Shown: positions 1-64,000, counted from the stretch's first letter. The stretch: DNA of 64,000 nt from a plasmid (GCF_056746865.1 NZ_JBWKMP010000003.1), one strand, 5' to 3'. Numbers and translations: made by a program. The notes: generated by a model from the letters alone, not told the origin.

Positions 1-99
1 AAGATAGAAGCTCAATTACGAAAGGAGCAGCGTCAGTTGGTGGCGATGACTAACCAGCTATGGAACGCCGCTGTGAAAAAACGTGAGGCTTCCCTATGA
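1..99 (+). CDS. 3' end of an upstream gene (partial, hypothetical)
   Basis: Frame is open from the window edge (KIEAQLRKEQRQLVAMTNQLWNAAVKKREASL*). Its TGA (97-99) overlaps the ATG at 96 of the next gene (ATGA coupling). Confidence 0.4.
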   Translation, partial: KIEAQLRKEQRQLVAMTNQLWNAAVKKREASL

Positions 100-1460
100 C
101 GTTAATTAACTGGGAAGCGCATCGAGCTAAGTTCCTGGAGTTAAGAGAAGAAACCGGGATCACCATAAAAGAATATTGCGAGCAGCATGACCTCAGCTTT
201 AACACCGCCAGAAAGCATCTCAATATGAAAAAAAATGAGGTTAAGGCGAAAGCTAAGGCTACCGGGAAAAGTACAAAACAGCGCGCAAAAAGCAGCGCCA
301 CCGGCTCAAAAAAAGAGCAAAAAAAGGCTAATAAAAGCACAGAATTTACAAAAACTGACAAATCGTTGGCTGGTGGACGGTTCCGCGCCATGCCGCAAAA
401 ACAAAATGCGGATCACAAAGAAAAGCCAAGTAATAACAACAAGATACACAAGGATGTGAAGGGATCATTTTGTGATGAAATGGGAGAAATGATCCCTAAA
501 AGCAGCGATAAAGCCCAACGAAACAAGGGATCATTGCAAATGATCCCTGATTCATCAGCTCAAAGCACCACTTTGCCTGCCACCAACGTCGCCCGTGAGA
601 TGATGAAGAACGGCGCGACTGAACATTTACGACTTGCGATACAGATGGCGCAGGAACGAGCAATTCAGTATCAGGCTATCGTTGACCAGGAAGCGGAGCG
701 ACTACAGGAAGAGATTGACGCCCTCGGTGATACACAGCCAGAGGGGATGCACCCAGGGCAGCGTCTTCTCGGACTGATCAGCGATGCGGCCTACTACATG
801 AATGACTTTATCACCAGGCTGGCAGCCATCTATCAGAACGAGCAGAAGCTACGCCAGGGGGATGAAAAACTTGCGCAGGGCGCGCGTCAGCAGGCATTCA
901 GGGAGGCTGAGGCCAGAGAAAAACTGGCGATTGCCCGCCTACAAGCCGAGCAGCGTGGCAAGGAGATTGAGTATCGCATTGGCGCTGACGCACGCGCCGC
1001 CAGGGTTATCGCCGCCGCTATACGTATGCGTGAGCGCGAGGAGCTGGATGATATAGGTGTTGCTGAATATATCGAGCGGCAGGGCGTCAGTGTCCCGGCT
1101 ATCCTGGCGGCACGAGCGGCAAAAGCGATCTCACTTCTGGAGCCTCCGGTTTCTGACGTTAACGATGTTGATGATGAGCAACTGGATAAAGAGGCGAAGC
1201 AGTTTGCCGAGCAACAAGCTGGACTCCCACAATGGCTTGCACAACGCCGGGCTGAAGTAGCGAAAATCGTTGATAGGCTTGGGATGGGGGATTACGACCG
1301 GAACGGAGAACGTAAAGCCGGTGAATTTGAGGCCAATGATGAAGACCTGAATATAGACCCTTCCGCGACGGCTGATATCTACGGTGATTATGACGCGGGG
1401 GATACCGGTTTTGATGCTGTAGATGACGAGATTGCGATAGACCAGCCGGAGGATGACTAA
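96..1460 (+). CDS. pacA: terminase small subunit, P1 PacA-like
   Basis: 454 aa. N-terminal HTH-like segment (ITIKEYCEQHDLSFNTARKHL) as in P1 PacA. The stop overlaps the large-terminase start (TAATG at 1458-1462). Contains a GATC-repeat cluster. Confidence 0.6.
   Translation: MTLINWEAHRAKFLELREETGITIKEYCEQHDLSFNTARKHLNMKKNEVKAKAKATGKSTKQRAKSSATGSKKEQKKANKSTEFTKTDKSLAGGRFRAMPQKQNADHKEKPSNNNKIHKDVKGSFCDEMGEMIPKSSDKAQRNKGSLQMIPDSSAQSTTLPATNVAREMMKNGATEHLRLAIQMAQERAIQYQAIVDQEAERLQEEIDALGDTQPEGMHPGQRLLGLISDAAYYMNDFITRLAAIYQNEQKLRQGDEKLAQGARQQAFREAEAREKLAIARLQAEQRGKEIEYRIGADARAARVIAAAIRMREREELDDIGVAEYIERQGVSVPAILAARAAKAISLLEPPVSDVNDVDDEQLDKEAKQFAEQQAGLPQWLAQRRAEVAKIVDRLGMGDYDRNGERKAGEFEANDEDLNIDPSATADIYGDYDAGDTGFDAVDDEIAIDQPEDD
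459..548. repeat. four alternating-orientation copies of a GATC-containing motif inside pacA (candidate pac site)
   Basis: AAGGGATCATT at 459-469 and 525-535; its complement AAATGATCCCT at 488-498 and 538-548. Each copy carries a Dam site. P1 pac is a cluster of GATC-containing repeats inside pacA. Confidence 0.35.
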
Positions 1461-2968
1461 TGGCTGGTGGTCGTAAGATTAAGTGCGTCACCAGTGATCC
1501 ACGTTGGCGCGATATGGTTATCAGGTATCGATACAACTTTACCCAGGCGGTTGTCGATATTTTTGGGATGTTCCCCTCCCACCAGCAGCAGCAGATCATT
1601 CAGTCAGTGCAGGAGACGGGGAGCAGGACGACCGTTACGTCCGGACACGGAACGGGTAAGTCGTCCCTTACCGCGATGTTGCTACTAATTTTTATGATCC
1701 TGTTCCCCGACGCCCGCGTCATTATTGTTGCGAACAAAATAGGCCAGGTAAAAACAGGCGTATTCAAATACGTGAAACAGTTTTGGGCGAATGCTGTTAA
1801 GCGCCACGGCTGGTTACAGACCTATTTTGTCCTGTCTGACACCATGTTTTATGAGCGTTCCCGTAAAGGGATATGGGAAGTGCTCTGTAAAGGTTATCGA
1901 CTCGGTAACGAAGAGGCACTGGCGGGGGAGCACGCGGAGCATTTACTGCTAATCCTTGATGAAGCATCGGGCATATCCGATAAGGCGATTAACGTCATGA
2001 CGGGGGCGTTAACGCAGAAAGATAACCGTATGCTCATGCTTTCCCAGCCTACGCGTCCAAGCGGTTACTTTTATGAATCTCACCATTCAAGGGCAAAGGC
2101 AGAAGGCAATCCGGAAGGTGTCTGGACGGCAATAGTCCTTAACTCTGAAGAATCACCATTCGTTGAACCGAGCTTTATTCGTGAGAAATTGCTGGAGTAC
2201 GGCGGCAGGGATTCGCTGGAGTACATGGTTAAGGTGCTGGGCCAGTTCCCGCGTGCAATTAACGGGTATTTGCTTGGTCGTGATGAGTGCGACCGCGCCG
2301 CACGGCGTAAAGTGTTGCTGGAGAAAGATTGGGGCTGGGTAGCGACCGCTGACGTCGGTAATGGTCGCGATAAATCGGTGCTCAATATATGCAAAGTATC
2401 CGGTTATCGTGAGAAACGACGCGTTGTGAACTTTAAGATACTGGAGATGCCAGGCACTATGGACCCGTTGGCTTTTGCCGACTTTATCTATAACGAATGC
2501 ACTCCTGATAAATACCCGAACATCACCATTGCTGTGGATGCTGATGGCTTTGGTTCAGATACGTGTGCGCAGCTTGTCCGCCGTGGTGCTAATCCCGTTC
2601 GCATCCGTTGGGGTAAGCCTATGTTTGCGCTAAGAGACAGAGAACGCTTTGTCAATCAGCGTGCTTACGCCAATATTATGGCAGGGGATGCCATTAAATC
2701 CGGGCGTATGCGTATCGATAGTGACCCCAAAACCGCAGATCAGGCATCAAAAATCCCGTATATGCTTAACGAAGAAGGGAAGGTAGCGATGATGCGCAAG
2801 GAGCACATGCGGCAGAAGTTAAACATCAAGTCACCGGACAGATGGGATACCTACTGCTTCACTATGCTGGTGGATTACGTGCCTGCTAATGAAGACATTG
2901 GCGCAGAACTCGCAACATTCCGCGATCAGGTGTTGGCAGAAGTGGATATTCCTGATATTGACATTTAA
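1460..2968 (+). CDS. pacB: terminase large subunit, P1 PacB-like
   Basis: 502 aa. P-loop TSGHGTGKSS and Walker B LLLILDEASG. C-terminal nuclease-like half (WVATADVGNGRDKSV ... VDADGFG). Translationally coupled to pacA. Confidence 0.8.
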   Translation: MAGGRKIKCVTSDPRWRDMVIRYRYNFTQAVVDIFGMFPSHQQQQIIQSVQETGSRTTVTSGHGTGKSSLTAMLLLIFMILFPDARVIIVANKIGQVKTGVFKYVKQFWANAVKRHGWLQTYFVLSDTMFYERSRKGIWEVLCKGYRLGNEEALAGEHAEHLLLILDEASGISDKAINVMTGALTQKDNRMLMLSQPTRPSGYFYESHHSRAKAEGNPEGVWTAIVLNSEESPFVEPSFIREKLLEYGGRDSLEYMVKVLGQFPRAINGYLLGRDECDRAARRKVLLEKDWGWVATADVGNGRDKSVLNICKVSGYREKRRVVNFKILEMPGTMDPLAFADFIYNECTPDKYPNITIAVDADGFGSDTCAQLVRRGANPVRIRWGKPMFALRDRERFVNQRAYANIMAGDAIKSGRMRIDSDPKTADQASKIPYMLNEEGKVAMMRKEHMRQKLNIKSPDRWDTYCFTMLVDYVPANEDIGAELATFRDQVLAEVDIPDIDI

Positions 2969-2991
2969 AAGCCCCGGCGATTCGGGGCTTG
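2968..2991. terminator. bidirectional stem-loop between convergent pacB and 3006-4043
   Basis: GCCCCG (2971-2976) pairs with CGGGGC (2983-2988), flanked by A/T runs, between two convergent stops. Confidence 0.6.
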
Positions 2992-3005
2992 TGGGTGGCT
3001 TGCGA

Positions 3006-4043
3006 TTACCAGAGTTTTGCCGCGTACATCGTTTGTGTGAATGTGTACCCATAGCGTTCTTCAACGCTTTTACCGTATTTTTTCCTGGCTTCAGTAAGGC
3101 GGATGCCTGTCAGGTCATCGCCGGAGGCAATCATAACTTCCAGTAGTTCCAGGTCCATTTTATCCAGCCTTGCCATTGCATCTTTAGCCTCTTGAATTTT
3201 CCGGCTAACGATCTGGTGTATGGCTGGATCGGCTTCGGCCAGCATTTTATCTGATTTGTTTTTTAAACTCTGATTGCGGATATCAATGTTTCTCAGGATA
3301 TATGACTTCACGACGTAGCTTGGCTGCTGCTTTTCCAGATCACGAACCCGATAAAGGTCAAATTCGCCGAGAAGTCCGCACGGAAGCGGTTTAATGCCAG
3401 TGTAAATGGTAAGGGTGCGGCGCTCACCAACGTTGTTAACAACGGGAATCTCTGTGTTTGCTTTTTTTGCAAAGATCAGCGCACCGTGCGTACCCACTCT
3501 GAAGCGTGAAAGTCCATTGTTGCCCTCAATATTGGTGGTAATCACCACATCGGTATAACCTTCTTTTCTTGCGCGGTATACCTCGCCCTCACGTTCAGCG
3601 GCGAAGAATCTGCGTTCTTCTTCAAGCGCACCGACAACCTGTGAAAATATCCTGTTTTTCATGCTTTTCTTTATAGTTTTATCGTATTTTTTCAGCAGGT
3701 CTTCGCGCGTAAATGTTCTCGTTGTGGTTGCGCTTTGCATAACGATGTGCGTACTCTGATTAGTATCCTCAACAATGAATGGGATCGGTAAATAAACCGA
3801 CTCAACAATGTTTGAGGCTTTGTCATCATCCTTGCGACACAGATCAACAAAGGCTTTCCATTCGGCTATGCATTTTTCAGCTTCTTCTAATACAGCCGGA
3901 TCATGTGTTAATGCAACATGGCGAAATTCCTCGCCAACATAACTGGTATCATGGAAAACAGAGTTTGCGACCACCAGCTCTTTCCACCTTTCAGCGGTTT
4001 GCAGGAACCGTTTGTACTCATTCTCGATCGACTTCTTACTCAT
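3006..4043 (-). CDS. hypothetical protein; candidate C1-type immunity repressor by position only
   Basis: 345 aa from ATG 4043 (MSKKSIENEY...); the track ORF starts further upstream at 4106. It occupies the slot between pacB and the recombination site that c1 occupies in P1. An operator-like TTTTCTAACA lies 19 nt upstream of its ATG. I cannot assert sequence similarity to P1 C1. Confidence 0.4.
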   Translation of the reverse strand: MSKKSIENEYKRFLQTAERWKELVVANSVFHDTSYVGEEFRHVALTHDPAVLEEAEKCIAEWKAFVDLCRKDDDKASNIVESVYLPIPFIVEDTNQSTHIVMQSATTTRTFTREDLLKKYDKTIKKSMKNRIFSQVVGALEEERRFFAAEREGEVYRARKEGYTDVVITTNIEGNNGLSRFRVGTHGALIFAKKANTEIPVVNNVGERRTLTIYTGIKPLPCGLLGEFDLYRVRDLEKQQPSYVVKSYILRNIDIRNQSLKNKSDKMLAEADPAIHQIVSRKIQEAKDAMARLDKMDLELLEVMIASGDDLTGIRLTEARKKYGKSVEERYGYTFTQTMYAAKLW

Positions 4044-4061
4044 TATTCCTACTCGATTTAG

Positions 4062-4071
4062 TTTTCTAACA
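4062..4071. promoter_or_regulatory. operator-like site TTTTCTAACA
   Basis: Member of the dispersed motif family (see findings). Lies in the leader of the 3006-4043 gene. Confidence 0.45.
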
Positions 4072-4146
4072 TAAAAGTCCTGTGACAAATTTATGCTGAA
4101 TAACAAGGTGAGTAAAGGATAAAACCGCTTTTTTTTGATTGTTCCT

Positions 4147-4423: not shown

Positions 4424-5452
4424 ATGGGTGAACTAGTTATCTCCGGCGGTTCTGGTGGTTTTCTGCGCGATATTGGCACCGAATACCAGGAAGCTGCAAA
4501 AAACTTTATGCAGTTCATGAACGACCAGGGAGCTTATGCTCCAAATACGCTTCGAGATCTCCGTCTGGTGTTTCATTCCTGGGCGCGGTGGTGTAATTCG
4601 CGCCAGCGCCCCTGGTTCCCGATTACGCCGGAAATGGCCCGCGAGTATCTTCTCCAGTTGCATGAGGCCGATCTGGCCTCGACCACCATTGATAAGCACT
4701 ATGCCATGCTTAACATGCTGCTTTCGCAATGTGGCCTCCCGCCGCTGTCGGACGATAAAAGTGTGTCTCTGGCCATGCGGCGCATCCGGCGCGAAGCGGC
4801 AACGGAAAAAGGCGAGCGAACAGGCCAGGCTATACCGTTGCGGTGGGATGATCTGAAATTGCTCGACGTGTTGCTGTCCCGTTCCGAGCGGCTGGTGGAC
4901 CTGCGCAATCGGGCGTTTCTCTTCGTGGCATACAATACCCTGATGCGTATGTCAGAAATCTCGCGCATCCGCGTCGGAGATCTGGACCAAACAGGTGACA
5001 CTGTAACGCTGCATATTTCACACACGAAGACCATCACGACCGCCGCCGGACTTGATAAGGTGCTTTCTCGTTACACTACCGCCGTACTGAACGACTGGCT
5101 GGAGGTGTCCGGACTTCGAGAACATCCGGACGCGGTGCTATTCCCGCCAATACACCGCAGTAATAAGGCCAGAATCACGACAACGCCCCTTACTGCACCT
5201 GCAATGGAGAAAATATTCAGCGATGCCTGGGGGTTGCTGAACAAACGAGATGCCACGCCGAACAAAGGAAGATACCGGACGTGGACAGGCCATAGTGCGC
5301 GTGTTGGTGCGGCAATTGATATGGCTGAGAAACAGGTGTCAATGGTCGAGATCATGCAGGAAGGTACATGGAAAAAGCCCGAAACACTTATGCGATATTT
5401 GCGCCGTAGCGGGGCATCCGTTGGTGCAAATAGTCGCCTGATGGACTCATAA
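4424..5452 (+). CDS. dre: Dre-type (Cre-family) tyrosine recombinase
   Basis: 342 aa. Cre-like layout with the catalytic-region motifs HSARVGAA and TLMRYLR. Matches my recollection of phage D6 Dre over almost the whole length. Adjacent to an exact rox site. Confidence 0.93.
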   Translation: MGELVISGGSGGFLRDIGTEYQEAAKNFMQFMNDQGAYAPNTLRDLRLVFHSWARWCNSRQRPWFPITPEMAREYLLQLHEADLASTTIDKHYAMLNMLLSQCGLPPLSDDKSVSLAMRRIRREAATEKGERTGQAIPLRWDDLKLLDVLLSRSERLVDLRNRAFLFVAYNTLMRMSEISRIRVGDLDQTGDTVTLHISHTKTITTAAGLDKVLSRYTTAVLNDWLEVSGLREHPDAVLFPPIHRSNKARITTTPLTAPAMEKIFSDAWGLLNKRDATPNKGRYRTWTGHSARVGAAIDMAEKQVSMVEIMQEGTWKKPETLMRYLRRSGASVGANSRLMDS

Positions 5453-36885: not shown

Positions 36886-37533
36886 GTGAGTCTTTGTGAT
36901 TATACAGGGAATATGGTTTCCCCCTGGCTGGAACACGGCATTGATGCAGTCATTGTCGATCCGCAACACCAGGAGTCCGGCAGCCAATTGATGGAGTCAG
37001 GTGCTGTACTCACACGTATCAGCGCAATTATTGACAGTGATGAGGTCTACAATTTCCTTCGGAAAAATTTGCACAGAGTTGTATTTTTAGCCGGTTTCCC
37101 TCCATGTACTGACCTGGCTGTATCTGGCGCACGCTGGTTCGCAGATAAAGCAAAAAAAGATCCGGTTTTCCAGTTCAAAGCAATGCAGGTTGTCTGGCAG
37201 TGTTACGACATTGCAAAGATGATTGGTTGCCCGTACATGATTGAAAACCCGGTCAGCCAAATATCGACATTCTGGCGTAAACCTGATCACATATTCCATC
37301 CTTATCACTTCACTGCATATTGCAAGGAAGACAATTACACCAAAAAAACATGCCTGTGGAGCGGACAAGGATTCATCATGCCAACTCCGCGAATCGACAA
37401 GTCGTTAGGTGATCCAGATAACCGAATACACAAGGCACCGCCAGGGCCTGAAAGAGCGAATTTTCGTAGCGCGACACCTTACGGTTTTGCAAGAGCTGTA
37501 TTTGAAGCAAATAAGGAGGGAATCCGTGGCTGA
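36886..37533 (+). CDS. DNA (cytosine-5) methyltransferase-like protein
   Basis: About 215 aa from a GTG after the rdgC stop. Motifs LAGFPPCTDLAVSG (PC motif IV) and MIENPV (ENV motif VI). Confidence 0.5.
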   Translation: MSLCDYTGNMVSPWLEHGIDAVIVDPQHQESGSQLMESGAVLTRISAIIDSDEVYNFLRKNLHRVVFLAGFPPCTDLAVSGARWFADKAKKDPVFQFKAMQVVWQCYDIAKMIGCPYMIENPVSQISTFWRKPDHIFHPYHFTAYCKEDNYTKKTCLWSGQGFIMPTPRIDKSLGDPDNRIHKAPPGPERANFRSATPYGFARAVFEANKEGIRG

Positions 37534-38285
37534 TATTGGTGCTAAATTTATTTCTTATAGCGACAATCATCGTCCTGCGGCGGAAGCCACTATCAGCCAT
37601 ATGCGACGTATTCGCTCGGAGGACGAATTTGATCGCCCAGTCTTTAAGTGGGTCGGCGGCAAATTTTCTGCACTGCCCATTATCTTCGAACACCTGCCCC
37701 ACGGAAAACGGTTGATAGAACCTTTCGTTGGAGGTGGCGCTGTTTTCACTAATGCCGGATTTAAAAGCAACCTGCTGAACGATATCAATAATGACCTGAT
37801 TAACTTCTATCAGACATTGCAGCGTGAAGGGCATTCTCTTATCACACTGGCATATCGTTTTTTTCAGGATTACAACTCTGCTGATGCATTTTTGAATGTT
37901 CGCAATGCATTCAACAATGGTGCTTATGATTCCCTTCACCATGCAGCGGCGTTCCTGTATCTCAATCGTCATTGTTTTAATGGCGTCACTCGCTATAACC
38001 GTAAAGGAGAGTTCAACGTCGGATATGGAAAGCAGAAATCACCCCACTTCCCTCTCGCGGAAATGGAGGCGTTCCTGGCTGACGATATTTCAAAGTATTC
38101 GGAATTTGTGTCCGGCGATTTTGCTGGTGTAATTGAGGCTGCCGGGAATGATGATGTGATTTTCTGCGATCCCCCCTATGAACCATTGCCTGACACTACC
38201 GGATTTACAAATTACTCAGGGCATAGCTTTAGGTTTGAAGATCAACAACGGCTGGTGTCACTGCTGGTGGATGCTGGATTTGCCC

Positions 38286-39191
38286 CTATATTTCCAGACA
38301 CCTGTTATCACTTAACCCATTACTGGCCCGCTGCCGTAGATATTCCCGTGGCGAGCGATAACCCAGTGCACTATGCGGATGCCATTCGTTATAATGCTCG
38401 AACGCCTCTGCAAGGTTCTTTGCTGCCGTTAACCCGTCTGGTTTAGGCATGATACTGATGTAGTCACGCTTTATCGTTTTCACGAAGCTCTCTGCTATGC
38501 CGTTACTCTCCGGACTCCGCACCGCCGTGTTCTTCGGTTCAAGCCCCAACATCCGGGCAAACTGCCGTGTTTCATTAGCCCGGTAGCATGAACCATTATC
38601 CGTCAGCCACTCTACTGGAGACGCCGGAAGCTCGTTGCCGAAGCGGCGTTCCACCGCTCCCAGCATTACGTCCTGTACTGTTTCACTGTCGAAGCCGCCC
38701 GTAGTGACTGCCCAGTGCAGTGCCTCACGGTCACAGCAGTCCAGCGCGAACGTGACTCGCAGTTTTTCTCCGTTATCACAGCGGAACTCGAACCCGTCAG
38801 AGCACCATCGTTGATTGCTTTCTTTCACGGCCACTTTGCCAGTATGTGCCCGTTTCGATGGCGGTACAGCGGTTTTTCGCTCAAGCAACAGCGCATTCTG
38901 GCGCATGATCCGGTAAACACGTTTGGCATTGATCGCAGGCATACCATCAAGTTCGGCCTGTCTGCGAAGCAGCGCCCATACCCGACGATAACCATACGTG
39001 GGCAGCTCTCCGATAACATGGTGTATACGGAGAAGCACATCCGTATCATCTGAGTGACGGCTGCGGCGACCATCTTTCCAGTCATCGGTTCGTCTGAGAA
39101 TGACGTGCAACTGCGCACGCGACACCCGGAGACAACGGCTGACTAAGCTTACTCCCCATCCCCGGGCAATAAGGGCGCGTGCGCTATCCAC
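38286..39191 (-). CDS. insD: IS2 OrfB (InsD) transposase catalytic part, expressed by -1 frameshift from OrfA
   Basis: 301 aa with the DDE region. An A-run slippery site lies in the orfA/orfB overlap (around 39190-39200). Confidence 0.93.
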
Positions 39192-39514
39192 TTTTTTGCA
39201 CGCCCGTATTCAACGGCTTCTTTAAGGAGTTCATTTTCCATCGTTTTTTTGCCGAGCAGGCGCTGGAGTTCTTTAATCTGCTTCATGGCAGCAGCAAGTT
39301 CAGAGGCAGGAACGACCTGCTCTCCTGCGGCCACAGCAGTAAGACTTCCCTCCTGGTATTGCTTGCGCCAGAGAAATAACTGGCTGGCTGCCACACCGTG
39401 TTGCCGGGCAACAAGGGAGACCGTCATTCCCGGTTCAAAACTCTGCTGAACAATAGCGATCTTTTCCTGTGTAGTACGCCGTCTGCGTTTCTCCGGTCCT
39501 AAGACATCAATCAT
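39149..39514 (-). CDS. insC: IS2 OrfA (InsC)
   Basis: 121 aa: [41 protein letters not shown]... Confidence 0.93.
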
Positions 39515-39780
39515 CTGCTCTCCAATGACTAGTCTAAAAACTAGTATTAAGACTATCACTTATTTAAGTGATATTGGTTGTCTGGAGATTCAGGGGGCCA
39601 GTCTAGATGCCCACAGACGCGGAGCGAAAATTGTGATAACAAACAGTGGTGCGCCTAACATTCGCGAACTTTACGTTGGCAATGGCTTCAAGGTGTATCC
39701 TATGCCATCCCGTCGCTCTGTATCCTGTAAAGCATCAACGCGAATGATAGCTAACGACATTATAGCCACACTTAATTAAG

Positions 39781-51304: not shown

Positions 51305-51856
51305 ATGACACCTTCTGAACTATTAGAAAGCGTTAAAGCGCGATTCAATCCTCTTCTTGTACGGGAAGAGGAAACACTGAAAGCATTCCTGCTCAAAGCG
51401 TTGACTACTTACCAGGACAGGGCAGGCGTAGTTAAGGCGTTAAAGCTGGAGAAATCAGACGGCACGGCGATCCCTGTTCCGGATGATTATCTGTCTCTGG
51501 TCCACGTCACTGACCACAACGGGCTTCTGGTTTACGCCGACGAGATTGCCGGTTTTGTCGAACTTGAGCTTACCGGTTCTGAACGCTGGCCTTTCAAGAT
51601 GCAATACCTTGTAAATCTCCGCGATCGCAACCTGGATGAGTGGCAAGTGCCACCTGCGATTATCGGAATGCTTGAGGAATATCTTGAAGCACTTATCAAT
51701 GTCCGCAACGTTGCCCGCCAGCGAAGGGCGTCAATTGATGGCAAGTTTGATTACTCCGATCTTCCTGATGAGGCGACGCTCTACGCGCGTGTTCAGGAGA
51801 TAGAAGAAAAAATGGCAGCCAACCGGGCCATTATCCCTGGTGCTACCATTTTTTAA
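51305..51856 (+). CDS. hypothetical virion-module protein
   Basis: 183-aa ORF, preceded by an intercistronic hairpin at 51259-51280. Confidence 0.5.
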   Translation: MTPSELLESVKARFNPLLVREEETLKAFLLKALTTYQDRAGVVKALKLEKSDGTAIPVPDDYLSLVHVTDHNGLLVYADEIAGFVELELTGSERWPFKMQYLVNLRDRNLDEWQVPPAIIGMLEEYLEALINVRNVARQRRASIDGKFDYSDLPDEATLYARVQEIEEKMAANRAIIPGATIF

Positions 51857-51869
51857 CACGGAGGGCTAC

Positions 51870-52577
51870 GTGAGTATTTTTAGTGCTACAACGCAAACGC
51901 TAGCCAGTGCGGTATCGTTTAGCGCGAAATCGTTCACCAGCAACCTTATCAGCGACATTCTGGATAGAGCGGTGTCTGGCAGTGGCGTTAGTGGGAGCTA
52001 CGGCAATGACATCGCTTACGGAAAGAACGTAGTTGCTACGGCTATGCGTATCCGCTATGCCCAGGGCTGGCAGTGGACGGTAGACGTAGACGGATTAAGC
52101 GGCTTTGATATGTTCGTTAAGGACATCACTTACAGTAGCGGGAATATTGAAACAGAAAGCAAAATCATTGGTAGCGTCGAGTTCAATAAGCCAACGCACG
52201 TAACCGCCGGGCCGGTAACAATGACGGTCAGAGACACAGAAGACGGCAAAATAATGAATTGGTTCAAAGAGCGCCGCGCTCGTGTAACCAATAGCGATGG
52301 TACGCTAAACCTGCCGCCAGATTATCTCATGAATATCAGGCTATACCGCGTTACACAGGAAGGCGGGAAAGAGCTGGAAGAGGAAATGCGTGTATTTCCG
52401 ACTCAGATAGGAGAGATCAGCCGCTCACGTGATCAGGTGTCCGAATTCTTGTCCTATCCGATCACGTTCCAGCGATACACATCTGCCGGTTCCGGCCTGT
52501 CCGCATTAGTCAATGGAGCTGCTGGTTTAGCAACAAGCGCACTTAAAAGCGCCGCCAGCAACGTGATCAAGTTTTGA
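51870..52577 (+). CDS. tube/baseplate-junction-like protein
   Basis: 235 aa from a GTG at 51870 (GGAGGG Shine-Dalgarno). Tube-family-like core (WQWTVDVDGLSGFDMFVKDITYSSGNIETE...GPVTMTVRDTEDGKI). Confidence 0.45.
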   Translation: MSIFSATTQTLASAVSFSAKSFTSNLISDILDRAVSGSGVSGSYGNDIAYGKNVVATAMRIRYAQGWQWTVDVDGLSGFDMFVKDITYSSGNIETESKIIGSVEFNKPTHVTAGPVTMTVRDTEDGKIMNWFKERRARVTNSDGTLNLPPDYLMNIRLYRVTQEGGKELEEEMRVFPTQIGEISRSRDQVSEFLSYPITFQRYTSAGSGLSALVNGAAGLATSALKSAASNVIKF

Positions 52578-52618: not shown

Positions 52619-52912
52619 TTGAGGGCAATATCTACACCTGCTGTTTACGTCAATGATGGCATTTTTTACACATCACAACAAAATCAACGCGTTACAACCA
52701 TAAAACATTCAACAGTAGTGCGATAAAAATAGCTATAGCATACGATGCCATCTGAGGGTGATTTTTACACATTCCTTATTAATCAATAAATTACAAATAA
52801 TGTTAGCCGTTAAAGATCCAACCAACTAACTAATGATGTAAGAATTGCCCTCAATCTCCCATCTTTAAGGGCAAATCCTACACCTACAGAGAGGTGTAGA
52901 AATTGCCCTTAA
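52619..52912. repeat. downstream iteron array (incA-like)
   Basis: Iteron consensus TGAGGGCAAatCTTACACCT. Plus-orientation copies at 52619-52640, 52752-52773 and 52865-52885, with a degenerate copy at 52654-52674. Minus-orientation copies at 52835-52854 and 52892-52912. Confidence 0.7.
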
Positions 52913-53664
52913 GACTGCTGATAGGTGAATTTTATTTTTGTAACTCTGCCACCTTCTGTAACCTCTGAGAAAACTATTTTCATTTTTGTGTTTTTTTCGA
53001 TTTCAGCTACAGCTTTTGCCAGAAAGCTTCTCTTAAATTCGGCGTACCGTTGATAGCTTTTGGGAAGACCATAACGCTCCCGCATCCATTCAACGCCAAG
53101 TATAGCGAAGCCGCTCCCATCATCCTTTCTATACTGGCATAAGGACTCATAAAGCCGCATAGAATAAGGGTTTGTCAGGCGAGACACTTCAGTAAAATTC
53201 AGCCTCGTGAACCTCTTATCAAGCAGAGTAAAAAACGGCATGAGATATGGATTCAGATGAATAATGTAAGTCCCCCGGCGTGGTGAGTAAGCCTCCTTAA
53301 TCATCCAGGGATAAGACTCATAACTGTCTTCTGATTCGGTTGATTCATCAGGGTTATATATCGTGACTTTCTTCTCACTAAGTCCGGAGATAGCTTTACG
53401 AATATCCTTGCTGGCTTCAGCAGAGGGCAAATTATACATCTCTGCATATTCGTTGACCGTCAACTCACAGGCACCTGAACCAAGAACGCCATCCTTAGAA
53501 GCATAGCGAAGTCTTCCCACCACAATAAACAACAGTCGCTTTTGGTCGCGTGTCAGGTGATAAGCCGCCTCTGTGATCTCATTGGCCTGCGCCAAGCTAC
53601 GGCTAATTGGTGTCGCTGATTCAATCAGACTGACGGCTTTTGCCGTTAATTCCGCTCTGTTCAT
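52909..53664 (-). CDS. repA: iteron-binding replication initiator RepA (Rep_3 family)
   Basis: 251 aa from MNRAELTAK. Flanked on both sides by roughly 20-bp iterons. Winged-helix Rep pattern (LTRDQKRLLFIVV..., NPYSMRLYESLCQY...). Confidence 0.85.
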   Translation of the reverse strand: MNRAELTAKAVSLIESATPISRSLAQANEITEAAYHLTRDQKRLLFIVVGRLRYASKDGVLGSGACELTVNEYAEMYNLPSAEASKDIRKAISGLSEKKVTIYNPDESTESEDSYESYPWMIKEAYSPRRGTYIIHLNPYLMPFFTLLDKRFTRLNFTEVSRLTNPYSMRLYESLCQYRKDDGSGFAILGVEWMRERYGLPKSYQRYAEFKRSFLAKAVAEIEKNTKMKIVFSEVTEGGRVTKIKFTYQQS

Positions 53665-53687
53665 AACCCTGTGTGATCCTTCAAATG

Positions 53688-53807
53688 GTGAGGGCAATTT
53701 TTACATCACTTTGAGGGCAATTACTACACCTTTTGAGGGCAAATCTTACACCTGCTGAGGGCAAATCTTACACCTCAATAGCTTAATTGAGGGCAAATCT
53801 TACACCT
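53688..53807. repeat. five direct iterons over the repA promoter (incC/origin-like)
   Basis: Copies at 53688-53708, 53711-53731, 53733-53753, 53755-53775 and 53787-53807. The three central copies are spaced exactly 22 bp apart. Confidence 0.8.
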
Positions 53808-62014: not shown

Positions 62015-64000
62015 ATGTGCGCAGATAAAGTAAAGAACATTGTCACCTTATCTTCGGACATTTCCGCTCCACTAATTGCAGACATGCAATACTTTGAGCT
62101 GTATAGCACCGAAGCTCTAAACAGGAAGATGAAAAATATCGTTCTGCCCGGTGTGTACTGTGGGTTTGAACCGGTGCCAGGGGATGGCCTGTTTGTGCGG
62201 ATTACATCCGAGAAAACAGAGGGAAGAGGGGCGGCTTCAGTTGACGTGGGTAAATGTCAGATATCCGTGCAGCAAGTCAGTGATGTTGTTGTTCCTGTAG
62301 AAGCAGGTGTAACGACAATCATCGTTCTTGAAGCTAATTACGAACATGGAGTGAAAACCAGCCAGGTAGATAGTTCATCGGATATTAGCGCAGCGAGAAT
62401 TATAGCTCTCGTTGATGAGGGCATAGCATCTAACCAGATTGAGCTATGCCGAGTGATCGTGCCTGACAATGCTCAAGCCGTTACCGCAGATATGATTAGC
62501 ACTAAATATCGCGCTAATCGTGCTGTAGGTGTTGAGTTCTCCAGTGCTTTGGATAGTGACGAAGAATATAAAGCTGCAACCCCCCTTGCTATCAGCACGT
62601 TAAATAAACTTAAAGCTCCGGTTGATAGCCCGGAATTTATAGGTATCCCTACATCTCCAACTCCGGAACAAGGTACAAACAGTACACAAATCGCAAACGC
62701 TGCCTTTGTTCAGGCCGCTATAACCGCACTTATTGATGGTTCTCCTTCAGCGTTGGATACGCTGAAAAAAATTGCAGATGCAATAAACAATGATCCCCAG
62801 TTTAGCCAGACGATTAATGATGCTTTAGCTCTTAAAGCGCCGTTATTAAGCCCGGCATTTACGGGGGTTCCAACAGCTCCTACGGCGTCACAAGGTACGA
62901 ACAACACTCAGATTGCAACAACCGCTTATGTTCGTGCCGCTATTTCTGCATTGGTCGGCTCATCACCAGAAGCTCTTGATACTCTTAATGAGCTTGCTGC
63001 GGCGCTGGGCAATGACCCGAACTTTGCGACTACAATGACAAATGCCCTGGCAGGTAAGCAGCCTCTCGACGCAACCTTAACCGCGCTCGCTGGCCTGGCG
63101 ACGGGGGCAAATAAATTACCGTACTTTACCGGAACAGACACTGTAGCCCAGACTGATTTAACGTCAGTCGGTCGCGATATTCTTGCTAAAACAAGCACAC
63201 TGGCTGTTATCCAATACCTTGGTTTAAGAGAACTCGGAACCAGCGGAGAAAAGCTCCCCCTGTTGAGCACAGCTAATACCTGGAGTGCACGCCAGACTTT
63301 CAGCGCGGGGATCACTGGTACGCTGACCGGGAACGCCGATACTGCGACGAAATTAAAAACAGCCAGAAAGATTAACGGTGTGGCATTTGATGGGTCGGCA
63401 GATATTACTCTGACCCCTGAAGATCTTGGCTTAACGGATATTGCTTCTCAAGCTGGTAACGCAGTTCAGCGTTCTGGCGACACAATGGGGGGGCAGCTAA
63501 AAATTGGCACAATAAATGCCCTTCGAATATTTAACCAGGACTTTGGCCTTATCTTCAGGAGATCCGAGGAATATCTTCATCTTATCCCGACAAATGAAGG
63601 GGAGGGTGAAAATGGTGACATCGGGCCATTAAGACCATTTTCTATAAACTTAAGAACTGGGTTGGTGTCCATCGGTAACGGCGTAAAAGTTGGCGGTGGT
63701 ATTACTGGTAATTTGACGGGAAACGCAGATACTGCCACAAAGCTCAAGACAGCTCGAACGATCGGCGGAGTGTCATTTGATGGCAGCGCCAATATCGACC
63801 TGCCTGGCGTGAATAAAACAGGTAATCAGAGCACTACCGGCAATGCTGCAACCGCAACGAAACTTCAGACGGCACGCACAATCGGCGGAGTGTCATTTGA
63901 TGGCAGCGCCAATATCGACCTGCCTGGCGTGAATAAAACAGGTAATCAGAGCACTACCGGCAATGCTGCAACCGCAACGAAACTTCAGACGGCACGCACA
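62015..64000 (+). CDS. tail fibre protein (5' part; runs off the window)
   Basis: Open for all 662 codons to the window edge and absent from the ORF track because it has no stop. Contains phage tail-fibre repeats (SPxFxGxPTxPTxxxGTNxTQIA; GNADTATKLxTARxIxGVxFDGSAxI). Confidence 0.85.
   Translation, partial: MCADKVKNIVTLSSDISAPLIADMQYFELYSTEALNRKMKNIVLPGVYCGFEPVPGDGLFVRITSEKTEGRGAASVDVGKCQISVQQVSDVVVPVEAGVTTIIVLEANYEHGVKTSQVDSSSDISAARIIALVDEGIASNQIELCRVIVPDNAQAVTADMISTKYRANRAVGVEFSSALDSDEEYKAATPLAISTLNKLKAPVDSPEFIGIPTSPTPEQGTNSTQIANAAFVQAAITALIDGSPSALDTLKKIADAINNDPQFSQTINDALALKAPLLSPAFTGVPTAPTASQGTNNTQIATTAYVRAAISALVGSSPEALDTLNELAAALGNDPNFATTMTNALAGKQPLDATLTALAGLATGANKLPYFTGTDTVAQTDLTSVGRDILAKTSTLAVIQYLGLRELGTSGEKLPLLSTANTWSARQTFSAGITGTLTGNADTATKLKTARKINGVAFDGSADITLTPEDLGLTDIASQAGNAVQRSGDTMGGQLKIGTINALRIFNQDFGLIFRRSEEYLHLIPTNEGEGENGDIGPLRPFSINLRTGLVSIGNGVKVGGGITGNLTGNADTATKLKTARTIGGVSFDGSANIDLPGVNKTGNQSTTGNAATATKLQTARTIGGVSFDGSANIDLPGVNKTGNQSTTGNAATATKLQTART
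63761..64000 (+). repeat. perfect 120-bp tandem duplication inside the tail-fibre gene
   Basis: 63761-63880 and 63881-64000 are identical at every base (40-aa unit IGGVSFDGSANIDLPGVNKTGNQSTTGNAATATKLQTART). The array may continue beyond the window. Confidence 0.9.

What the first reader, a model, noticed from the sequence alone, without database searches (positions are those of the whole stretch)
459..548. Four GATC-bearing inverted decamers inside pacA: candidate methylation-sensing pac site
AAGGGATCATT (459-469, 525-535) and its complement AAATGATCCCT (488-498, 538-548) alternate within 90 bp of the small terminase gene. They impose the peptide repeats KGS(F/L) and (E/Q)MIP on the protein, which suggests that selection acts on the DNA. 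P1 pac also lies inside pacA, consists of clustered GATC-containing repeats, and is cut only when Dam-methylated. Here the element's own dam is inactivated by IS2 (see 36886-39779), so pac methylation would depend on the host Dam.
Basis: partly seen in the sequence, partly recalled or inferred. Interest (0 to 1): 0.5.

Follow-up and report, generated by a model that had tools for sequence, protein, structure and literature searches.

The report
Candidate D6-type phage packaging (pac) site
The four GATC-bearing repeats, plus a fifth nearby, inside the small-terminase gene pacA of this D6-like phage-plasmid are very probably the site where DNA packaging starts, a compact variant of the well-known methylation-controlled pac site of phage P1.

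Summary
AAGGGATCATT lies at 459-469 and 525-535. This is the only 10-mer present four times within 100 bp in the 64-kb window, and none of 200 simulated sequences had such a cluster. It is also the densest GATC cluster in the window.

The element is a D6-like P1-family phage-plasmid with gene order lpa-pacA-pacB-c1-dre. Across 30 distinct relatives the surrounding pacA linker varies at 61% of columns, with no insertions or deletions. The five GATC hexamers (410-415 plus the four) vary at only 5 of 30 positions (P=3e-7). Constraint follows the DNA motif rather than the codons.

Every PacA clade sampled (about 12, down to 22% identity, including P1) has a GATC-repeat cluster in the same linker. 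These are read in different frames. Seven or more clades use TGATCA/G, as P1 does. The five D6-side clades use AAATGATCC(C).

Differences from P1: an asymmetric motif in inverted pairs, a compact 1+4 layout, and no recognisable IHF site. The dam::IS2 claim is confirmed (IS2 at 38275-39605) and is private to this copy.

No cleavage or methylation data exist. The pac-site reading is strongly supported but inferred.

The parts
96..1460 (+). pacA (454 aa), the small-terminase / pacase A subunit. It has an N-terminal HTH (about residues 1-45), a K/N/S-rich variable linker (about residues 47-165) that holds the repeats, and a conserved C-terminal part.
   Evidence: ORF; 80% nucleotide identity to D6 pacA, annotated 'DNA pacase A subunit'; 20% identity to P1 PacA, E=5e-8; alignment.
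1460..2968 (+). pacB (502 aa), the large-terminase / pacase B subunit.
   Evidence: (D6 pacB); weak Terminase_6N match, E=0.0026.
410..548 (.). The whole candidate pac recognition region: five GATC hexamers. GATC starts are at 411, 463, 491, 529 and 542, with spacings of 52, 28, 38 and 13 bp.
410..415 (-). Site S0: GGATCA (TGATCC on the minus strand). It matches only the hexamer, not the full 10-mer. It is read as Asp-His.
   Evidence: Invariant in all 30 distinct D6-type sequences while the preceding codon varies (EDH/ADH/SDH). Absent from the Enterobacter clade.
459..470 (-). Site SA: AAGGGATCATTT (AAATGATCCCTT on the minus strand). It is read as Gly-Ser.
   Evidence: D6 clade has AGA TCA (Arg-Ser), keeping GATCA. 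Lost in 1 of 30 sequences (L038).
487..497 (+). Site SB: AAATGATCCCT. It is read as Met-Ile-Pro.
   Evidence: AAATGATCC is intact in 29 of 30 distinct sequences, including the Enterobacter clade. All four Pro third-position bases occur. Lost in 1 of 30 (L043).
525..535 (-). Site SC: AAGGGATCATT (AATGATCCCTT on the minus strand). It is read as Gly-Ser.
   Evidence: GATC is invariant and the flanks vary (GGGATCTTC, AGAGATCAT).
538..548 (+). Site SD: AAATGATCCCT. It is read as Met-Ile-Pro. Together with SC it forms a 23-bp near-palindrome.
   Evidence: AATGATCCC is the longest invariant run in the linker.
37526..38274 (+). The 5' part of the element's dam gene (D12-class N6-adenine methyltransferase). 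It retains FxGxG and DPPY.
   Evidence: PF02086, E=7.5e-49; the intact 305-aa homologue in NZ_LR890273.
38275..39605 (-). IS2 (1331 bp, two transposase ORFs) inserted in dam. The 5-bp target duplication lies at 38270-38274 and 39606-39610.
   Evidence: The junction is absent from PLSDB and from 5,426 complete E. coli genomes.
39606..39779 (+). The displaced 3' part of dam (the last 56 or so codons).
4424..5452 (+). Context: a Cre/Dre-like tyrosine recombinase (342 aa) downstream of pacB and c1 (3006-4106, minus strand). This is the same pac-c1-recombinase layout as in D6 and P1.
   Evidence: the D6 immC record with pacA, pacB, c1, rox and dre. Not verified by a family search.

Best explanation
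Region 410-548 is the recognition part of the pac site of this D6-like phage-plasmid. This is the place on concatemeric DNA where the PacA/PacB pacase assembles and makes the first cut of a headful packaging series. The recognition unit is an asymmetric motif, AAATGATCC(C/Y). Its core is TGATCC, where P1 has TGATCA/G. It is present four times as two inverted pairs (459-470 with 487-497, and 525-535 with 538-548), plus a fifth hexamer-only copy at 410-415. Every unit contains a Dam site (GATC), as in P1. Cutting is therefore most likely licensed by adenine methylation. In P1 hemimethylated sites are proposed to be bound and further methylation to promote cleavage (PMC10028697); that this spares most pac copies in a concatemer from cutting is my recollection of Sternberg and Coulby 1990, a paper not held in the library. 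The site is embedded in the poorly constrained linker of its own pacA gene, so the protein there simply carries whatever peptides the DNA motif imposes (DH, GS, MIP). The element's own dam is broken by IS2, so methylation of the site in this copy would have to come from the host Dam. Shown here: the repeats, their DNA-level conservation, their family-wide occurrence, and dam::IS2. Inferred: PacA binding, cleavage at or near the cluster, and methylation dependence.
For: (a) Non-random repeats. (b) DNA-level purifying selection. In 30 distinct collinear pacA sequences (71-99% identity) the linker (gene nt 139-500) varies at 61% of columns, but the five hexamers vary at 5 of 30 positions against 215 of 332 elsewhere (Fisher P=3e-7). 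Third-codon-position diversity is 0.043 in the cores against 0.285 outside (P=2e-4). Gene-wide, only 31% of codons with an invariant degenerate amino acid have an invariant codon. Yet Asp106 GAT and Ile150 ATC are invariant, while the neighbouring His107, Pro134 and Pro151 codons vary synonymously. GGA<->AGA (Gly<->Arg) changes keep the GATC. (c) The same motif is read in three frames: DH, GS and MIP here, and DP, IP and DQ in clade L047. (d) There are no insertions or deletions between the sites across these 30 sequences, despite 61% variable columns. (e) Family-wide pattern. Each of about 12 PacA clades (98% down to 22% identity) has 5-9 GATC in pacA nt 131-491, against 0.9-1.8 expected (P from 2e-2 to 1e-5 per clade). 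This includes P1, where these hexamers are the experimentally defined pac with annotated cleavage sites (PMC10028697). (f) The consensus of 26 oriented sites from five clades is a-A-A-T-G-A-T-C-C-C-(C/T). (g) pacA and pacB are adjacent, with the same pac-c1-recombinase layout as D6 and P1. (h) Intact relatives carry a Dam gene. P1 needs Dam methylation at pac (PMC12707154).
Against: There are no experimental data for any D6-type element: no mapped termini, no cleavage assay and no methylation test. The layout differs from P1. There is no pair of clusters flanking a roughly 90-bp cleavage zone; the largest gap here is 52 bp, against 96 bp in P1 and 81-199 bp in the other clades. No IHF consensus was found: no hit with at most 1 mismatch in the region, and 4 hits with at most 2 mismatches against 2.2 expected. 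The MIP and DH peptides are themselves conserved, so some protein-level constraint cannot be excluded. Two relatives have each lost one site (L038, L043), so no single site is indispensable, or those copies are defective. The cleavage point itself cannot be placed.
Confidence: 0.72

Rival explanations
1. A Dam/SeqA-responsive regulatory element that is not the pac site. In this reading the clustered GATCs are bound by SeqA when hemimethylated, or they modulate an internal promoter. They would time pacA/pacB expression or plasmid behaviour after replication. Packaging would start elsewhere.
For: Clustered GATCs are classic SeqA/Dam targets (established knowledge for oriC and P1 oriR). The cluster is conserved as DNA. 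The non-P1 layout and the lack of an IHF site leave room for another role.
Against: No sigma-70-like promoter overlaps the cluster on either strand. The conserved unit is a 10-nt asymmetric motif, AAATGATCCC, not bare GATC, which points to a sequence-specific binding protein. The cluster always sits in pacA across about 12 clades, including P1, where the function is known to be pac.
Confidence: 0.12
2. A protein-level repeat. In this reading KGS(F/L) and (E/Q/K)MIP are functional peptide motifs of PacA, for example contact points for PacB or the portal. The DNA repeats would be a by-product.
For: MIP (twice) and DH are conserved as peptides across the D6, window, HX138 and Enterobacter clades.
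Against: Synonymous sites inside the cores are frozen, while flanking synonymous sites vary. Gly<->Arg replacements are tolerated provided GATC is kept. The same DNA motif is translated in other frames in other clades, and both orientations occur. A peptide repeat does not explain why KGS and MIP are encoded by reverse-complementary DNA.
Confidence: 0.07
3. Nucleic-acid hairpins. In this reading the two inverted pairs fold in the mRNA or in single-stranded DNA. They would control pacA translation or stability, or terminate antisense transcription.
For: The RNA fold of 445-560 gives -34.2 kcal/mol, z=-3.7. The scan flags a terminator-like hairpin on the minus strand at 548-526.
Against: There is no covariation. 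On 12 sequences, 13 of 21 pairs never vary, 7 depart only by unpaired cells, and there is only 1 pair with changes on both sides. Cells forming a standard pair are 86.5%, against 85.9% in shuffles. In D6 the stems shrink to the GATC cores without compensation. The fifth site has no partner.
Confidence: 0.05

Closest known systems
Bacteriophage P1 pac site (about 161-162 bp inside pacA, with hexamer sets HEX4 and HEX3, an IHF site and central cleavage; Sternberg & Coulby 1987/1988/1990; Skorupski et al. 1992/1994, as summarised in PMC10028697 and in the P1 GenBank annotation)
   Same: It lies inside pacA just after the N-terminal HTH. It has multiple short repeats, each containing GATC. The pacase genes pacA and pacB are homologous (PacA 20% identity, E=5e-8). 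The phage carries a Dam methyltransferase. It is a headful phage-plasmid with the pac-c1-recombinase layout.
   Different: The repeat is the asymmetric TGATCC(C), with a conserved AAA 5' flank, instead of TGATCA/G. Copies are in alternating orientation, forming two inverted pairs. There are five copies in 139 bp (1+4) instead of 4+3 separated by about 96 bp. No IHF consensus was found. The position in the gene is nt 315-453, against 194-353 in P1, because the linker is about 57 aa longer. Nothing has been tested experimentally.
Phage D6 (MF356679, AY753669) and D6-like plasmid prophages of E. coli, Salmonella and Shigella
   Same: All five GATC sites are at identical gene positions (316, 368, 396, 434, 447), with the same gene order. 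Identity is 80% over pacA-pacB.
   Different: The window belongs to a distinct sub-clade (74% PacA identity to D6; 7 plasmids in PLSDB at 96% or more). In it the flanks of the four sites are more uniform, giving perfect 10-11-mers. D6 has AGGAGATCATT and GGGATCTTC at two sites. No pac feature is annotated in either D6 record. Whether the D6 papers (Sauer & McDermott 2004; Gilcrease & Casjens 2018) discuss these repeats could not be checked, because neither is held.
pac sites of other headful phages located inside the small-terminase gene (P22 gene 3, SPP1 gene 1, Sf6)
   Same: The general logic is shared: the recognition site is embedded in the gene of the protein that recognises it (established knowledge).
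   Different: Those sites are not built from GATC repeats and are not known to be methylation-gated. Their small terminases are unrelated to PacA.

Membership tests
P1-type pac site | Lies within the 5' part of pacA, downstream of the region encoding the N-terminal HTH | tested here: met
   Gene nt 315-453 of 1365. P1 hexamers are at nt 194-353 of 1194, with cleavage annotated at nt 276-285.
P1-type pac site | Several clustered short repeats, each containing the Dam target GATC | tested here: met
   Five GATC in 135 bp, the densest cluster in 64 kb. There are 4 exact 10-mers.
P1-type pac site | The repeat unit is the hexamer TGATCA/G | tested here: not met
   All five units are TGATCC/GGATCA. 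The consensus of 26 sites in five clades is AAATGATCC(C).
P1-type pac site | Bipartite layout: two hexamer sets (4 and 3) flanking a central cleavage region of about 90 bp | tested here: not met
   Spacings are 52, 28, 38 and 13 bp. No gap is comparable to the 96 bp of P1 or the 81-199 bp of the other clades.
P1-type pac site | IHF binding site next to the cleavage region | tested here: inconclusive
   No WATCAANNNNTTR match with at most 1 mismatch between 300 and 700. There were four matches with at most 2 mismatches against 2.2 expected. IHF sites are degenerate, so absence is not shown.
P1-type pac site | Adjacent pacA and pacB genes homologous to those of P1 | tested here: met
   PacA against P1 PacA gives E=5e-8 over the full length. 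The D6 homologues are annotated pacA and pacB. PacB gives a weak Terminase_6N match.
P1-type pac site | The repeats are conserved as DNA among relatives, independently of the protein sequence | tested here: met
   (within the D6 group). (across about 12 clades).
P1-type pac site | Cut by PacA/PacB, generating the first end of a headful series | not testable with these tools
   This needs virion-DNA end mapping or an in-vitro cleavage assay.
P1-type pac site | Cleavage requires Dam methylation of the GATCs | not testable with these tools
   Only indirect evidence is available: GATC is the one element common to all clades' repeats, and relatives encode Dam.
D6-like phage-plasmid (P1 supercluster) | Nucleotide similarity and gene order lpa-pacA-pacB-c1-recombinase; a plasmid of about 90 kb | tested here: met
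   80% identity to D6 over 1-3000. ORFs agree. All 85 E. coli genome matches are on plasmids of about 76-97 kb among those listed, and none on chromosomes. PLSDB relatives are mostly 87-98 kb (a few are 74-80 kb or a 216-kb cointegrate) and 119 of 121 are non-mobilizable.

The most novel reading that the evidence does not exclude
The PacA family may have split into two packaging-specificity classes. One class recognises the near-palindromic TGATCA/G (P1 and at least 6 other clades). The other recognises the asymmetric 10-mer AAATGATCCC (the D6, window, HX138, Enterobacter and L047 clades). The switch coincides with an Arg->Lys change in the HTH recognition helix: NTAR-R-xL becomes N/S-T-A/G-R-K-xL (13 of 13 clade representatives, plus 2 further clades). 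If so, D6-type and P1-type pac/pacase pairs would be mutually orthogonal, methylation-gated packaging systems. The D6/window type would be a minimal, compact version of about 140 bp.
Probability: 0.4. Interest if true: 0.5.

Novelty: new variant of a known kind. Interest (0 to 1): 0.36.

Why it matters
P1 pac is the standard example of a packaging site gated by DNA methylation, and it is the basis of P1 phagemid and PAC-vector technology. A second, sequence-distinct and more compact version has several uses.

- It gives a natural specificity variant for studying how PacA reads its hexamers. The candidate determinant is a Lys/Arg position in the HTH.
- It offers a potentially orthogonal pac/pacase pair for phagemid delivery into Enterobacteriaceae.
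- It allows pac sites to be annotated, and packaging starts predicted, in the roughly 120 D6-like plasmids in PLSDB. Some of these are from clinical isolates.

The family-wide rule found here is a simple annotation heuristic. Each PacA clade examined carries its own GATC-repeat cluster in the pacA linker, visible as DH, GS or MIP peptide repeats.

The dam::IS2 copy is a natural test case for dependence on host Dam.

Tried and rejected
- **Literature.** The D6 genome paper (PMC5800970, PMID 29304472), the D6 immC paper (Sauer & McDermott 2004), the P1 genome paper (PMC523184) and Sternberg & Coulby 1990 are not held. Full-text searches for D6 or D6-like with pac, pacA, PhageTerm or GATC found no description of a D6 pac site. 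Prior description therefore cannot be excluded.
- **IHF site.** None was convincing.
- **Internal promoter.** None was found in 1-1600 near the cluster.
- **Hairpin or cruciform under selection.** No covariation was found. Changes break pairs without compensation.
- **Extra degenerate motif copies.** A search of 1-1600 with at most 2 mismatches, which might have revealed a hidden second cluster, found only the four known copies.
- **Genome-contig scan.** It gave only three distant P1-like loci. A single-protein scan with the L047 PacA returned only itself.
- **Contig ends as a proxy for physical ends.** The only break inside pacA (L049/L042) has a 10-nt overlap. It looks like an IS insertion or an assembly break, not a terminus.
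- **Pfam on PacA.** No family matched.
- **Structure prediction of the linker.** This was not attempted. It would only have addressed disorder, and tool rules restrict the alignment inputs.

Full report
**1. What is in the sequence**

The window starts inside an lpa-like gene. It then runs through pacA (96-1460, 454 aa) and pacB (1460-2968, 502 aa), followed by a c1-like repressor on the minus strand (3006-4106) and a 342-aa Cre/Dre-like recombinase (4424-5452). The first 3 kb are 80% identical to phage D6, where the genes are annotated lpa, pacA and pacB.

PLSDB holds 121 plasmids with this pacA. Seven are at 96% identity or more, and about 114 are at 72-76%. Nearly all are non-mobilizable replicons of about 90 kb from Escherichia, Salmonella, Shigella and Enterobacter. 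In 5,426 complete E. coli genomes the region occurs 85 times, always on a plasmid. The element is therefore a D6-like member of the P1 group of phage-plasmids.

**2. The observation**

- AAGGGATCATT occurs at 459-469 and 525-535.
- AAATGATCCCT occurs at 487-497 and 538-548.
- The exact inverted 10-mers are AGGGATCATT and AATGATCCCT.
- They encode KGSF, EMIP, KGSL and QMIP.

Chance can be excluded.
- It is the only 10-mer with four copies in 100 bp in the 64-kb window, and none of 200 Markov simulations produced one.
- Four of the five AATGATCCC copies in the window are here.
- It is the densest GATC cluster in the window, although GATC overall is not enriched (218 against 244 expected).
- A fifth GATC hexamer, GGATCA at 410-415, belongs to the same set (see section 3).

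**3. Conservation shows selection on the DNA**

I collected pacA from D6, 9 PLSDB plasmids and 75 IMG/VR contigs. Thirty distinct sequences of the D6, window and HX138 sub-clades (71-99% nucleotide identity to the window) are collinear with no insertions or deletions.

- In the linker (gene nt 139-500), 61% of columns vary. This compares with 30% in the HTH part and 35% in the rest of the gene.
- Only 5 of the 30 positions in the five hexamers vary, against 215 of 332 elsewhere in the linker (Fisher P=3e-7).
- Mean pairwise diversity is 0.040 in the hexamers and 0.227 outside them.
- For third codon positions alone, diversity is 0.043 against 0.285 (P=2e-4).

The constraint follows the motif, not the codons.
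- Gene-wide, only 31% of codons with an invariant degenerate amino acid are themselves invariant.
- Asp106 (GAT) and Ile150 (ATC) never vary.
- The adjacent His107, Pro134 and Pro151 codons use 2-4 synonymous forms.
- Gly is replaced by Arg at two sites through GGA->AGA, which keeps GATC.
- The codon before site S0 encodes E, A or S, while GGATCA stays fixed.
- AATGATCCC at site SD is the longest invariant run in the linker.

Two sequences have each lost one site through a T->C change (L038 at SA, L043 at SB). Single sites are therefore dispensable, or those copies are decaying.

**4. The same feature occurs across the whole PacA family**

In every clade recovered there are 5-9 GATCs in pacA nt 131-491, against 0.9-1.8 expected from the flanking DNA (per-clade Poisson P from 2e-2 to 1e-5). 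About 12 clades were recovered, down to 22% PacA identity.

| Clade | GATC positions in pacA (nt) | Note |
|---|---|---|
| P1 | 195, 202, 214, 229 and 325, 337, 348, (376) | These bracket the annotated IHF site and the cleavage positions at nt 276-285. They are the HEX4 and HEX3 elements of the experimentally defined pac (PMC10028697). |
| L050 group, L063 group, L069/70, Pantoea L015, L143, L150-152 | Left and right sets separated by 81-146 bp | TGATCA/G type |
| Enterobacter L011/44/45 | 157, 169, 181 and 380, 397, 408, 435, 471 | GGATCA = TGATCC type |
| L047/48 | 142-226 and 327 | TGATCC type |
| D6, HX138, window | 316, 368, 396, 434, 447 | TGATCC type |

Twenty-six oriented sites from the five TGATCC clades give the consensus a-A-A-T-G-A-T-C-C-C-(C/T).

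The motif is read in all three frames and on both strands. It gives DH, GS and MIP here. It gives DP, IP and DQ in L047. It gives strings such as GDHNHDHSSDH in the L050 group. The linkers of different clades are not alignable as protein. What persists is therefore a DNA element, whose only universal component is GATC.

**5. What it most likely is**

By position, composition, conservation and homology of the flanking pacase genes, this is the D6-type counterpart of P1 pac.

The likely mechanism is as follows. Steps 1 to 3 and step 5 are inferred, and nothing in this mechanism was tested here.
1. PacA, through its N-terminal HTH, binds the repeats together with PacB.
2. The two inverted pairs suggest dimeric or head-to-head binding.
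3. The pacase cuts nearby and packaging proceeds by headfuls.
4. In P1, cleavage needs Dam methylation, and the phage dmt is essential only in Dam- hosts (PMC10028697; PMC12707154).
5. Retention of GATC in every clade's repeat, and of a Dam gene in intact relatives, argues that methylation gating is ancestral and applies here too.

**6. Differences from P1**

- The unit is asymmetric (TGATCC with an AAA flank) and occurs in alternating orientation.
- The layout is compact, 1+4 in 139 bp, with a largest gap of 52 bp. There is no obvious central cleavage zone.
- No IHF consensus is present.
- I cannot say where the cut falls. The candidates are the 416-458 spacer, which contains a conserved AATAACAA stretch, and the variable 498-524 spacer.

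**7. Rival explanations**

- Hairpin under selection: the RNA folds well (z=-3.7), but there is no covariation, and D6-clade changes break the pairs without compensation.
- Internal promoter: none was found.
- Purely protein-level repeat: contradicted by the synonymous-site pattern, the Gly/Arg swaps and the frame changes.
- Dam/SeqA regulatory role without packaging: cannot be excluded. It does not explain the conserved 10-nt motif or the invariable location in pacA.

**8. The dam::IS2 statement**

- ORF 37409-38446 matches the D12 N6-adenine methyltransferase family (E=7.5e-49).
- Relatives carry an intact 305-aa Dam.
- Alignment places a 1331-bp IS2, with a 5-bp duplication, at 38275-39605. 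It lies after about codon 249, and the gene tail ends at 39779.
- The junction is absent from PLSDB and from all complete E. coli genomes searched. The insertion is therefore a recent, private event, not part of the system's design.
- FxGxG and DPPY are retained, but the last 56 or so residues are removed. Loss of activity is likely but untested.

**9. Novelty**

The kind of element is textbook (P1 pac). The TGATCC-type, compact, inverted-pair version is not annotated in either D6 record. I found no description of it in the searchable literature. However, the two papers most likely to mention it are not held, so earlier description cannot be excluded.

I rate it a new variant of a known kind, of moderate interest. 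The by-product may be more useful than the single site. This is the family-wide rule, together with a Lys/Arg difference in the HTH recognition helix that tracks the TGATCC/TGATCA split. That correlation rests on what is probably one evolutionary switch, so it is only a lead.

Noticed in passing
window 410-415: There is a fifth GATC hexamer (GGATCA), 52 bp upstream of the four decamers. It is invariant in all 30 distinct D6-type sequences while the codon before it varies. It is absent from the Enterobacter clade, which instead has three sites about 200 bp further upstream.
   Followed up: yes
PacA residues 37-42 (window 204-221) and homologues in L001-L152: The HTH recognition helix reads NTAR-K-HL (or STGR-K-KL) in all five clades with TGATCC repeats. 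It reads NTAR-R-(Y/E)L in all seven or more clades with TGATCA/G repeats. This is a candidate specificity determinant, but probably reflects a single phylogenetic switch.
   Followed up: partly
window 38275-39605: An IS2 (1331 bp, 5-bp target duplication) lies inside the element's dam gene. The junction was not found in PLSDB (72,556 plasmids) or in 5,426 complete E. coli genomes, so the insertion is private to this copy.
   Followed up: yes
window 53689-53800: There is a dense array of direct and inverted repeats of 9-19 nt (TGAGGGCAAATCTTACACC-like) beside ORF 52909-53697 (minus strand). These are probably plasmid-replication iterons.
   Followed up: no
window 52415-52568: This is the second densest GATC cluster of the window (GAGATCAG, GTGATCAG, CGATCACG, GTGATCAA). 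It lies inside ORF 51840-52577 and has the P1-type TGATCA flavour. Its significance is unknown.
   Followed up: no
L049 (end) and L042 (start), IMG genome 2537562191: In one D6-like relative, pacA is split between two contigs at gene nt 320-329. The ends share a 10-nt overlap (ATGAAAATAA), directly 3' of site S0. This looks like an IS insertion with a 10-bp target duplication, or an assembly break, inside the candidate pac.
   Followed up: partly
L038 and L043 (IMG/VR D6-like contigs), pacA nt 368 and 396: Each has lost one site through GATC->GACC (Ser->Pro at SA, Ile->Thr at SB). This shows that individual sites can be lost.
   Followed up: partly
L003 (NZ_AP027414) 301-1665: RefSeq annotates pacA from an internal start (locus 694), omitting the 5' third that carries the HTH and the repeats. 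The full 454-aa frame is nevertheless open. Several other plasmids label pacA 'hypothetical protein'.
   Followed up: partly
L050-L062, L111-L142 (IMG/VR), pacA nt 145-240: This clade has six or seven TGATCA hexamers at a strict 12-nt spacing, translated as a (G/S/N)DH tripeptide repeat (GDHNHDHSSDHASDHQNDH). It is a vivid case of a DNA site imposing a peptide repeat.
   Followed up: partly
window 62789-62797: This is the only other copy of AATGATCCC in the 64-kb window. A single copy is about what chance predicts (0.5 expected).
   Followed up: no
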